Assembly (NCBI GenBank): GCA_965287045.1
Contig: OZ336870.1
Span: forward strand, 151,466,001-151,530,000
Length of the DNA stretch: 64,000 nucleotides
Direction of reading: 5' to 3'
From: Carcharhinus amblyrhynchos
Lineage: Eukaryota
Part shown: piece by piece, positions 5,731 through 64,000 of the stretch
Position numbering within the stretch: the stretch's first letter is position 1
Layout: each line of letters opens with the position of its first letter
Made by a program: the position numbers and the translations under genes
The notes under the pieces: model-generated
The model's input: the letters and a program-made list of their open reading frames with translations, nothing else
The model's database searches: none
What the model was told of the DNA's origin: nothing

Positions 5731-5783
5731 ATTTATCGCCACCTCCAGAGGTTTGTTAACAGATTTTTTTGTTTGATTTTCAG

Positions 5784-31529: not shown

Positions 31530-31704
31530 GTTGTAGCTCGTGATGATGACCAAGGGCTGAATGGCCAGCTGACTTACACAATTGTTGGTGGGAATGCAGA
31601 AGAAGCTGTTACTTTGACACCCAGTGGGCTGCTAAGCCTGGTCATGAACCTGGATCGTGAAACAACAGCACAATTTGTCCTGACAGTCATTGCTACAGAT
31701 GCAG
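31530..31704 (+). CDS. FAT4: FAT4 internal coding exon, 175 nt, phase 0/1
   Basis: Acceptor atgctatag|GTT, donor GCAG|gtaaaa. Encodes VVARDDDQGLNGQLTYTIVGGNAEEAVTLTPSGLLSLVMNLDRETTAQFVLTVIATDA. Confidence 0.95.
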
Positions 31705-31754
31705 GTAAAAGCAAGTCTCATCTGTATTCCAAAGTTGTTCAGTGGGTTGGTGTT

Positions 31755-61205: not shown

Positions 61206-61550
61206 TTGGACCTATGCACAATAGCTTGTGATCTGCCAGCCACTTCTATGTTCTGTACATTCAGTCCAATCCTGCACATGGTGAACACTCATTAATAACT
61301 GCTTGACACAGATCTTCACAGGAGGGAGATTGAAAAACCTATCCAGCGTAAAGCTAACTCCCGCTTGAGGATGCTTAGTAACAGGTCAGTGGAAGCCAAA
61401 GCTGTTGCTCTCTGTAACTACCCTCCATATTCCAGAAAATCAGAAGCATTTTCTGCTGAACAACCTGAGAGTATCTGTTCCCATCAAGAATTACAGGAAA
61501 GAATGACTGGGGGAGACCATTTTTCAATTAATTTCAAAATCTGGATTCTT

Positions 61551-62023
61551 AAGAACATAAGAAATAGGAGCAGGAGTAAGCCATCTAGCCCTTCGAGCCT
61601 GCCCCGCCATTCAATAAGATCATGGCTGATCTGTCGTGGCTCAGTTCCACTTTTCTGCCCTCTCCCCATAACCCTTAATCCCCTCGCTTATCAAAAACCC
61701 ATCAACCCGCGTCTTAAAAATATTGAGCGAGGCAGCCTCCACCACCTCAACGGGCAGAGAATTCCAGAGATTCACCACCCTTTGAGTGAAGAAGTTCCTT
61801 CTCAACTCTGTTCTAAACCGCCTCCCCTTTATGTTGAGGCTGTGCCCCCTAGTCCTACTGTCCTTTCTGAGCGGGAAGAGTCTCTCCACCTCTATCCTAT
61901 CCATCCCATTCATCATCTTATATGTCTCAATGAGATCTCCCCTCATTCTTCTAAACTCTAACGAGTACAAGCCTAGTTTATTCAGCCTCTCCTCATAGCT
62001 CAACCCCCTCAACTCCGGCATCC
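61551..62023 (-). mobile_element. Young CR1-clade LINE 3' end (ORF2 C-terminus, 3' UTR and tail)
   Basis: Minus ORF MPELRGLSYEERLNKLGLYSLEFRRMRGDLIETYKMMNG...TRGHSL...RRNFFTQRVVNLWNSLP. Tail reads aagaacataagaaataggagcagg on +. CpG-rich. Confidence 0.93.
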
Positions 62024-62038
62024 TTGATCTCCCCCAGA

Positions 62039-63423
62039 ATGAACTACATACTTCTCTGCTATCTGGGATTCCTCGTCTCAGACCGAACCACAGATACCAC
62101 CTCAACCGAAGACCAGCCTATGATACCCTGGATATATGTGGTTCACCCCACCAAAGCAGGCAAATGTGAGGATGGCAAACTATGGGTACACTCCAATAAG
62201 AGTATCACCTATGGATGTAATAACCAAAGAGTGGTGTATAGGAAAGATAACGGGAGCTCTGATTACTGCTCCCTAAGGATGACCCTCACTAGTGACTGGT
62301 GGGCATACAGTAACCGTGGGTGCATGGAGCTAGCCTGTCTAGCCTATGGTCCAAAAAAAGGGCTGGAATTGGGAAAGAAGATTATTCAGAACGAGTATAT
62401 CTGCTATGAAATTAAGAATGGGTTAAGACTAACTGTTAGCACACCCATCTCCACTTGTCCCGAAACCACTCCAGGGCCCCAAAATGGGTTGATACTAAAA
62501 CACACAGGAAAAATCTTGTACGACAACATCCACCACAAATTAGTACCTGTGGTGGTAGATATTGCTGGGACCCAACTGCCAGAATGGTGCTCTCCCCAGC
62601 TGAAGAGATTATACCTCCACTTAACTCGCAGACTGTCAGGACAGAAGGTAGGAATGGATGAGAGACAAGAAAGATCCAAGAGGGAGTTAGTCAATGACAT
62701 GGCCACAGCATACGGGGCAGGGGTAGCAACTATCAATGCCCTTGATTTAGCTGACCTGGACAATAAACTTAGGGTTTTGACCCAACAGGTTAAACAGACA
62801 CTAAGTTCTATCAATGACGACAATCAGCAAGATGCTGAAGGGGAAGTGATTGGGAATGCAGCCAGCAGCCACATGGTAGCTATATTAGAAGGACATGCCA
62901 AGACAATCAATCAAATTATTAGGGAAAAAATAGAGGGTGACGACCGACAACAAAACCGGACTTTATGTAGTGCATATGGACAGTGGATGATAGAACAGCT
63001 AAGGGAAAACCTTGAGCAGGTATGTAGTGGACAGGTTCCATCTTGGATTAGTGACGAACAGATGGAACATCTATTTACGGGTAAGAAACACCCCGGGTTA
63101 TCTGGTTGCCAGATGTGACAGTTGACCAAAGTCTGGTTCAACGATGACTGCAAAGGGACTCCAGGGAAAGCCCTGGGAATGATATTAGGGCTCCCCATAA
63201 TCACTGACGACCAGGTTGGACTGAGGGTCTTTGAAGTGGAAAATATAGGAACTATCCATGAGGATATCTGGATAGGGTACGATGGCATTTTACCATACGC
63301 GGTGGAAAAAGAAGGGAGACTCATAGGCACTACTCTGGACAGATGTCAGCAAACTGATGAAATAATTGCATGTCCGTACCCAGTTTATTTAAATGAGCAT
63401 GCACTGTGTGGCTTCAGAACAAA
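62039..63423 (+). pseudogene. Endogenous viral envelope / class I fusion glycoprotein (F-like env) gene, one premature stop at 63116-63118, 3'-truncated by CR1
   Basis: ATG at 62039 with hydrophobic N-terminus MNYILLCYLGFLVS; N-glycosylation sequons NKS, NGS, NRT; furin site RSKR at 62672-62683 followed by Ala/Gly-rich ELVNDMATAYGAGVATINAL and a heptad-like helix. After the TGA the same frame stays open (QLTKVWFNDDC...GMILGLPII...LDRCQQTDEIIACPYPVYLNEHALCGF). No transmembrane anchor before the CR1 junction. Confidence 0.8.
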
Positions 63424-64000
63424 CAGGCATTTTGAGGGGAATTGCTTGTTAGAGCAGACGCAGCACGGTTTCGTTAAGGGGAAGTCGTGTCTGACAAATT
63501 TATTGGAGTTCTATGAGGATGTGTCTAGGGCGGTGGATGGAGGAGAGCCGGTGGATGTGGTCTTTCTTGATTTTCAGAAGGCGTTTGACAAGGTTCCTCA
63601 CAAGAGGTTATTGCAGAAGGTAAGGGGGCATGGAGTTGGGGGTAAGCTGTTAGCGTGGATAGAGGATTGGCTGTCAAATAGGAGGCAGAGAGTGGGGGTC
63701 AATGGGTGCTATTCGGATTGGCGGTTGGTGACTAGTGGAGTGCCCCAGGGGTCGGTGCTGGGGCCTCAGCTATTTACCATTTATATAGATGATCTGGAGG
63801 AGGGAACCGAGTGTATGGTGTCGAAATTTGCTGATGACACCAAGAGTGGTGGAACGGCAAATTGCGTGGAGGGTGTGGAGAGTTTGCAGAAGGATATAGA
63901 TAGGCTGGGCGAATGGACCAGGAACTGGCGAATGGAATTTAATGTTGGCAAGTGCGAGGTGGTCCACTTTGATAGGAATAATGGTAGGAAGGACTATTAC
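63424..64000 (+). mobile_element. Young CR1-clade LINE, 5'-truncated, reverse transcriptase core, runs off the window
   Basis: Stop-free frame translated by hand: QHGFVKGKSCLTNLLEFY...VDVVFLDFQKAFDKVPH...SGVPQGSVLGPQLFTIYIDDL...SKFADDTK...KCEVVHF. CpG-rich. Confidence 0.93.

What the first reader, a model, noticed from the sequence alone, without database searches (positions are those of the whole stretch)
61551..64000. Env is sandwiched head-to-head between two complementary halves of a young CR1: possible LINE-mediated capture
Seen: the order is [CR1 3' end, minus, 61551-62023][env, plus][CR1 RT core, plus, 63424 to end]. Both CR1 pieces are stop-free and CpG-rich, their 5' ends face the env, and they do not overlap. 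The right piece covers QHGF to KCEVVHF..DYY; the left piece starts roughly 95 codons further along at MPELRG. No LTR, gag or integrase is recognisable left of 61551. Established: 5'-to-5' joined segments are the twin-priming (5' inversion) signature of target-primed reverse transcription, and LINE RTs can template-switch onto other RNAs. Inference: one insertion event in which CR1 machinery copied an env transcript into the inversion junction, moving a viral fusogen without a provirus.
Basis: partly seen in the sequence, partly recalled or inferred. Interest (0 to 1): 0.78.

Follow-up and report, generated by a model that had tools for sequence, protein, structure and literature searches.

The report
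Inverted LINE carrying retroviral env fragment
In an intron of a shark cadherin gene, one CR1 retrotransposon copy is split into two exactly complementary head-to-head halves around a broken, provirus-free piece of a retroviral envelope gene, likely because the CR1 machinery copied both in a single inverted insertion; it is a rare fossil event with no sign of a working fusion protein.

Summary
Beyond the window the plus CR1 stops after 286 bp at RRFTR-L, has no tail, and abuts the left half with a 2-nt overlap in 28 of 29 sister copies. No LTR, gag, pol or env remainder lies in 100 kb. Contigs of three related organisms carry both outer junctions, which argues against misassembly. The predicted long target-site duplication is absent: at most 3 nt, which is chance level. 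The 1.4-kb env piece is 94-96% identical to a pol-less, lokiretrovirus-like ERV family. It has a premature stop and lacks about 200 codons including the membrane anchor, so no fusogen was moved. Best reading: one CR1 insertion with a twin-priming-type 5' inversion whose inverted arm is env+CR1. Whether env joined by template switch or came from a pre-existing CR1-in-provirus chimera is open. The chimera is slightly favoured because this CR1 family inserted into this ERV family at least five times in 36 loci. Inversions are rare in this CR1 family (0 of 48 sisters). No empty site was seen. New variant of a known kind; single dead copy.

The parts
61550..62022 (-). CR1 LINE 3' half (non-inverted arm): end of ORF2 (MPELRG...EKWN*), 3' UTR and (TTCTTATG)n-type tail abutting unique intron DNA
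   Evidence: 93-97% identical to 29 sister copies
62022..63425 (+). env fragment of a pol-less LTR element family: 17 nt upstream of the ATG plus about 462 of about 670 codons; no LTR, no membrane anchor
   Evidence: 94-96% identical to full-span family copies
62039..63118 (+). 359-codon open frame: hydrophobic N-terminus, RSKR cleavage motif (62672-62683), fusion-peptide-like stretch and long helices; ends at a premature stop (63116-63118); a short stretch near the N-terminus is out of frame relative to sister copies
62022..62038 (+). pyrimidine-rich stretch ending in CAG directly before the env ATG; candidate splice acceptor (inferred from sequence only); matches provirus copies
   Evidence: no RNA data
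63426..64000 (+). CR1 RT core (inverted arm); continues past the window to window-equivalent 64286 (G000:C1:151530286), ends at RRFTR-L with no tail, then unique DNA
   Evidence: (RVT_1, E 3.5e-25)
62020..62024 (.). inversion junction: 5' end of the CR1 3' half joined to the 5' end of the env piece, 1-nt microhomology
63423..63428 (+). sense env-to-CR1 junction, 1-nt microhomology; found at no other locus examined
31530..31712 (+). last host cadherin-repeat exon detected upstream; the next one detected lies at window-equivalent 79580, so the insert is intronic, with env in the host gene's sense

Best explanation
This is likely a single CR1 retrotransposition with a twin-priming-type 5' inversion, whose RNA template likely carried an ERV env segment upstream of the CR1 part. 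Inferred steps: the nicked target primed on the CR1 tail and copied the 473-nt 3' half; the second target end primed internally at the exact point where that copy stops and copied 861 nt of CR1 and then 1404 nt of env; the two cDNA ends were joined over 1 nt. The env-CR1 join most likely pre-existed as a 5'-truncated CR1 nested in sense inside a provirus and transcribed from its LTR (about 0.45); a template switch during insertion is the close second (about 0.3). Shown: arrangement, complementarity, junctions, env family, absence of the rest of the provirus, and both outer junctions in relatives. The product is a non-functional intronic fossil.
For: Arms abut with a 2-nt overlap in 28 of 29 sisters and match the same sisters. 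Flipping 62022-64286 in thought gives one colinear sense unit env-CR1-tail, with one end of the flipped part exactly at the insert boundary, the geometry described for twin priming (PMC2912911). The tail abuts unique DNA, not the 3' rest of env. Both outer junctions are in contigs of three related organisms. The two families were active in the same period: singleton rates are 0.5% and 0.9% for the CR1 arms and 0.9-1.4% for env. Young CR1 copies lie inside 8 of 36 fetched ERV loci, five separate events, three in sense and two within env. CR1-clade duplications are short (3-5 bp, PMC4245944; median 4 in 24 sisters), so a long one is not expected.
Against: No empty site was seen, and the 3-nt candidate duplication is at chance level. 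5' inversions were almost confined to human L1 in cell assays, and a LINE with 5-bp duplications made none (PMC4245944 passages). 0 of 48 sister copies with a visible 5' end have an adjacent inverted arm. No source locus with this env-CR1 junction was found (40 of 339 candidates scored; pattern scan with 22 hits, of which the 2 other exact and 2 one-mismatch hits checked were unrelated). No provirus closer than 96-97% was found among 36 loci.
Confidence: 0.72

Rival explanations
1. Template-switch version (the first reader's; counted inside the 0.72 above): during twin priming the CR1 reverse transcriptase jumped from CR1 RNA onto a separate proviral RNA and copied 1.4 kb of env.
For: The env-CR1 junction is unique in the assembly as far as searched; env is in the same sense as the CR1 arm; LINE chimeras by template switch and by twin priming with foreign RNAs are described for snRNAs (PMC4476161 passages).
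Against: It needs two rare events and an internal-to-internal jump on 1 nt of homology. The same paper says template switching may be largely restricted to U6-type RNAs. Nested CR1-in-provirus copies are common here, and a source could have been lost since the event, which predates the split from related organisms.
Confidence: 0.3
2. An ordinary, uninverted env-CR1-tail insertion was later inverted by DNA break repair, with one break inside CR1 and one at or near the 5' end of the insert, possibly with a deletion. The env would still be LINE-carried.
For: Twin priming is not documented for CR1 in the papers found; 0 of 48 sisters inverted; no significant duplication; a clean break with no CR1 loss also fits end joining.
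Against: The second break would have to fall at the insert boundary or delete exactly the remainder; no flank DNA lies between the 3' half and env, and no proviral DNA lies right of the arm.
Confidence: 0.15
3. An inverted CR1 insertion whose junction gap was patched with proviral DNA or retroviral cDNA by host repair, with no LINE copying of env RNA.
For: 1-nt microhomologies at both env ends fit end joining; the piece matches unspliced proviral sequence to its first base.
Against: The patch is long (1.4 kb) and lies in the sense expected for continuous reverse transcription (one chance in two).
Confidence: 0.1
4. Two independent CR1 insertions on either side of a decayed provirus, or a misassembly.
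For: CR1 copies are dense, and one head-to-head pair of independent copies was seen (L151).
Against: Exact complementarity to 2 nt; the plus arm lacks a tail; no LTR or env remainder; junction contigs in independent runs. The independent pair in L151 overlaps in CR1 coordinates and both copies reach the 3' end.
Confidence: 0.03

Closest known systems
L1 5'-inverted insertions (twin priming)
   Same: Two arms of one LINE joined 5'-to-5', internal break next to the flank, short microhomologies (PMC2912911 Background).
   Different: CR1 clade in a shark, not mammalian L1; no 10-20 bp duplication; a 1.4-kb foreign segment sits between the arms.
HERV-W processed pseudogenes (L1-mobilised ERV RNA)
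   Same: ERV sequence moved without integrase by LINE machinery (135 of 213 HERV-W loci; PMC5016936 passages).
   Different: Those keep R-U5 and U3-R ends and a poly(A) tail; this has neither and depends on a CR1 tail.
snRNA/LINE chimeras; SVA
   Same: Foreign RNA joined to a LINE by template switch or twin priming (PMC4476161); SVA carries an HERV-K10 fragment and is LINE-mobilised (PMC2912911).
   Different: Here the passenger is a long env segment between two arms of the same LINE, in one copy that did not amplify.
Lokiretroviruses (donor family)
   Same: LTR-gag-pol-env layout in the sister subfamily, dual RNase H, env with signal peptide, RXKR site, coiled coils and membrane anchor; closest pol proteins are 'NYNRIN-like' from frogs and coelacanth (PMC7947760).
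   Different: The main text read lists lampreys, bony fishes, amphibians and reptiles and does not mention sharks (supplement not seen); the donor subfamily lacks pol; no PF00523 hit; no RT tree was made.

Membership tests
Twin-primed (5'-inverted) LINE insertion | Two arms from one element, complementary at the inversion point | tested here: met
   2-nt overlap in 28 of 29 sisters
Twin-primed (5'-inverted) LINE insertion | Only the non-inverted arm has the 3' tail; the inverted arm ends at flank DNA | tested here: met
Twin-primed (5'-inverted) LINE insertion | Target-site duplication around the whole insert | tested here: inconclusive
   3 nt; 60% of mismatched control pairs reach 3 nt or more; 11 of 24 sisters have 5 nt or more against 8% of controls
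Twin-primed (5'-inverted) LINE insertion | Microhomology at the internal priming site and inversion junction | tested here: inconclusive
   1-2 nt and 1 nt; compatible but not above chance
Twin-primed (5'-inverted) LINE insertion | Clean empty site in an outgroup | not tested
CR1-clade LINE | RT with QHGF/DFQKAFD/GVPQGSVLGP/FADD motifs and a microsatellite tail | tested here: met
   RVT_1; tail repeats in sisters; the clade name rests on recalled motifs, no Repbase comparison
Provirus at this locus | LTRs, gag or pol, 3' part of env | tested here: not met
   none in 100 kb
LINE-processed ERV pseudogene (HERV-W type) | R-U5 and U3-R ends with poly(A) | tested here: not met
   no LTR sequence
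Class I viral fusion protein (donor env) | Signal peptide, furin site, fusion peptide, heptad helices, membrane anchor; last gene before the 3' LTR | tested here: met
   Full-length family member; the top three PDB profile hits are HERV-K TM, coronavirus spike and foamy Env, all weak (E 0.0014-0.095)
Functional fusogen (window copy) | Complete frame with membrane anchor | tested here: not met
   stop at 63116-63118, truncated at 63425
Lokiretrovirus (donor family) | Dual RNase H; integrase close to CGIN1/NYNRIN | tested here: met
   RT_RNaseH and RNase_H both hit; top pol hits named NYNRIN-like, 44-46%; equating NYNRIN with CGIN1 is recalled
Lokiretrovirus (donor family) | Env similar to Mononegavirales F (PF00523) | tested here: inconclusive
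   0 of 40 aligned members hit PF00523; one hit Baculo_F at E 0.0011; no fold comparison was obtained
Lokiretrovirus (donor family) | RT groups with lokiretroviruses in a tree | not tested
   no labelled reference set was held; PDB hits are MLV and foamy RT and Ty3

The most novel reading that the evidence does not exclude
A CR1-clade LINE can twin-prime, which the cell assays read here suggested short-duplication LINEs do not do, and in the same event jump onto endogenous retroviral RNA. Here that placed a lokiretrovirus-like env segment with a candidate splice acceptor in the sense strand of a host cadherin intron. CR1 would then be an integrase-free route for scattering viral envelope domains in non-mammalian genomes.
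Probability: 0.3. Interest if true: 0.55.

Novelty: new variant of a known kind. Interest (0 to 1): 0.36.

Why it matters
If right, it is a clean genomic example of a twin-priming-type inversion in a CR1-clade LINE, a structure reported almost only for mammalian L1, and shows that CR1 can carry retroviral coding sequence to new sites. It makes a testable prediction: a genome-wide class of complementary head-to-head CR1 arms in sharks. Its weight is limited: one old, dead copy, a truncated env with no anchor, no evidence of expression, and LINE mobilisation of ERV RNA is already known from HERV-W and SVA. The donor family, a lokiretrovirus-like ERV in sharks with a pol-less satellite subfamily, may be of equal interest.

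Tried and rejected
Long target-site duplication: not present; the 3-nt candidate is chance level. Resident provirus: none. Source locus: none among those scored. Empty site through repeated flanks: both flanks are single-copy. Empty site through reads: no flank-to-flank joint among the 15 joints shown, 957 not shown; a missing row proves nothing. L034 as the source: its CR1 differs by 1 of 237 nt from the window arm (best of 53 copies) and its env is the nearest in the 3' part (97.0%), but its junction is elsewhere and its 3' half is only 96% alike, so rejected. Reverse-transcriptase stop at a splice branch point as the cause of the env 5' end: the base before the piece does not fit the recalled branch consensus; dropped. 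The env frame after the stop runs in phase into the CR1 RT frame: one chance in three, no weight. Pfam gave no family for env; a homolog search among longer proteins found nothing. No fold comparison and no atlas result were obtained. No RNA data were examined. Earlier scan notes: three look-ups, nothing returned. Literature searches for a CR1 precedent: 10 papers listed, none reporting CR1 twin priming in the passages of the 4 opened; 3; 0; subscription papers such as Ichiyanagi and Okada 2008 were not available, so absence from print is not established.

Full report
1. Observation. The window ends with a minus CR1 3' half (61550-62022), a plus env-like stretch (62022-63425) and a plus CR1 RT core from 63426. 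The window is G000:C1:151466001-151530000, so I read on. The plus arm ends at window-equivalent 64286, just after RRFTR-L, has no tail, and is followed by single-copy DNA. Against the 29 non-self CR1 loci returned (40 of 4159 candidates scored), the end of the plus arm and the start of the minus arm overlap by 2 nt in 28; both arms are 93-98% identical to the same copies. Both are stop-free and CpG-rich (o/e 0.59 and 0.50 against 0.26). The arms are two halves of one CR1 copy.

2. The env piece. It is 94-96% identical to a multicopy LTR element (49 matches, 40 of 315 candidates scored). Full copies are about 6.7 kb: LTRs of about 785 bp with TG...CA ends and 4-bp duplications, a primer-binding site (tRNA-Asn by recall), a gag with two zinc knuckles, no pol, then env. 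A sister subfamily has pol with RT, two RNase H domains and integrase. Its closest proteins are 'NYNRIN-like' from frogs and coelacanth at 44-46%. Env relatives come from sharks (Scyliorhinus, Mustelus, Chiloscyllium, Heterodontus) and a frog (10 of 57 looked up). A full-length family env has a hydrophobic N-terminus, RSKR site, long helices and a C-terminal membrane helix (mean pLDDT 67, first 134 residues unreliable). Its profile's best PDB hits are three viral fusion proteins, all weak. This fits lokiretroviruses as described in PMC7947760 (parts 1-2 of 4 read), but no RT tree or fold comparison was obtained and no PF00523 hit was seen. The window copy starts 17 nt before the ATG, matches provirus sequence to its first base, reads 359 codons to a premature stop at 63116-63118 and is cut at 63425, about 200 codons short of the end and before the anchor. 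No LTR, gag, pol or env remainder lies in the window or the next 36 kb.

3. Junctions. Env-to-CR1: same sense, 1-nt microhomology. CR1 3' half to env: head-to-head, 1 nt. Arm end to flank: 1-2 nt. The env-CR1 junction was found nowhere else: 39 other scored loci match only the env side (40 of 339 scored), and of 22 pattern hits the 2 other exact and 2 one-mismatch hits checked are unrelated. The best possible duplication is 3 nt. With the same rule 24 sister copies gave a median of 4 nt (11 with 5 or more), and 60% of 552 mismatched pairs gave 3 or more. A sister CR1 inside a provirus, where the target is known from other copies, also shows only about 2 nt (L034).

4. Reality and age. Contigs of four runs were laid: a second sample from the source study and three organisms coded A, B and F. 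Contigs run from the inverted arm into the right flank in all four (34, 30, 28 and 26 nt on the CR1 side; only the first meets the tool's 31-nt rule for bridging). Contigs run from the left flank 24-28 nt into the CR1 tail in the three relatives (below that rule). Their flanks differ from the window by roughly 1-3.5%. So the inverted structure is unlikely to be an assembly error and likely predates these splits. That env itself sits at the locus in relatives is only hinted: of 13 env letters private to the window among the fetched copies, 11 appear in the displayed table, and in organism A 5 show a residual depth equal to single-copy depth, 2 show more and 4 show none (19 of 22 displayed env rows entered, 3 mixed rows left out). 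Singleton rates (CR1 arms 0.5% and 0.9%; env 1.4% among 11 and 0.9% among 21 copies) and LTR-pair identities of 94-100% show that both families were active over the same period.

5. Mechanism. Read in the sense of the CR1 tail, the insert is: flank, reversed CR1 core, reversed env, CR1 3' half, tail, flank. One end of the reversed block is the internal CR1 break and lies directly against the flank. That is the layout of twin priming (PMC2912911 Background), with the template read as env-CR1-tail. The tail touches unique DNA, so CR1 did not insert into a provirus at this site. Two routes give such a template. In the nested route a 5'-truncated CR1 sits in sense inside a provirus env and is transcribed from the LTR. 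One search shows young CR1 copies inside 8 of 36 fetched ERV loci (five events: L029/L030/L032/L035 are one duplicated event; L034, L073, L077, L078), three in sense and two in env, plus one provirus inside a CR1 (L071). In the template-switch route the enzyme jumps between two RNAs. The missing source locus favours the second route; the frequency of nesting and the need for only one RNA favour the first. I put them at about 0.45 and 0.3, with later DNA inversion at 0.15, a repair patch at 0.1 and independent insertion or error at 0.03; these are rough and sum to slightly over one.

6. Evidence against. In cell assays 5' inversions arose only with human L1, apart from one Nimb-2 insert, and ZfL2-1 with 5-bp duplications made none (PMC4245944 passages). 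Here 0 of 48 sister copies with a visible 5' end (26 of 29 and 22 of 29) have an adjacent inverted arm; an arm set off by a 1.4-kb filler would mostly be outside the 1.5-kb view. One head-to-head pair (L107/L151) overlaps in CR1 coordinates and is two insertions. The empty site remains unseen.

7. Context. Cadherin-repeat exons on the plus strand lie at 5781, 14156, 20068, 29745 and 31530 and again at window-equivalents 79580 and beyond. The insert is thus in an intron of about 48 kb, with env in the host sense; the name FAT4 is recalled, not returned by a call. The env piece opens with a pyrimidine stretch and CAG before the ATG, a candidate acceptor; no RNA was examined.

8. Comparison and verdict. 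The parts have precedents: L1 twin priming, snRNA/LINE chimeras (PMC4476161 passages), L1-processed HERV-W (PMC5016936 abstract and passages) and SVA. The combination in a CR1 was not found in searches, which do not cover subscription journals. PMC7947760, PMC8922424 and PMC9040795 do not mention sharks in their main text (supplements not seen), while PMC10699275 reports a catshark 'Spuma' ERV that might be the same lineage (passages). PMC5389967 held the search terms only in its reference list. Verdict: a real and unusual single insertion, new variant of a known kind, no working fusogen. Interest 0.36.

Noticed in passing
L023-L040, L071-L088 (G000): A lokiretrovirus-like ERV family in a shark: a pol-bearing subfamily and a pol-less gag-env satellite share LTRs and most of env but differ in the env 5' part (about 74% there, 95% further on). 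LTR pairs are 94-100% identical. Sharks are not named as hosts in the main text of the lokiretrovirus paper.
   Followed up: partly
L034, L073, L077, L078, L029/L030/L032/L035, L071: The same young CR1 family inserted into this ERV family at least five times in 36 loci, and one provirus sits inside a CR1.
   Followed up: yes
window 5781-31712; L022:9580-9762; L153:9089-9346; L154:4329-7685: Plus-strand multi-exon cadherin-repeat gene (FAT4-like by recall) spans the window; the insert is intronic.
   Followed up: partly
L120 / L152:3223: An unrelated CR1 copy is 5'-truncated at the same nucleotide as the window's inverted arm; chance (about 5% by rough estimate) or a pause site.
   Followed up: partly
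L029, L030, L032, L035: One provirus with a CR1 at its 3' LTR is duplicated; three of the four copies lie near ends of large contigs, suggesting subtelomeric duplication.
   Followed up: no
L071-L074, L076-L079: Eight proviruses share the same internal env deletion of about 725 bp, an amplified deleted subfamily; one has identical LTRs.
   Followed up: no
L151:3067-5068: Head-to-head pair of CR1 3' ends 1.1 kb apart, overlapping in CR1 coordinates; independent insertions.
   Followed up: yes
P0022, P0052: Database proteins in which related env sequence is joined to an F-box protein (Heterodontus fbxo15 isoform) or to cadherin domains; possibly gene-model artefacts or exonised env.
   Followed up: no
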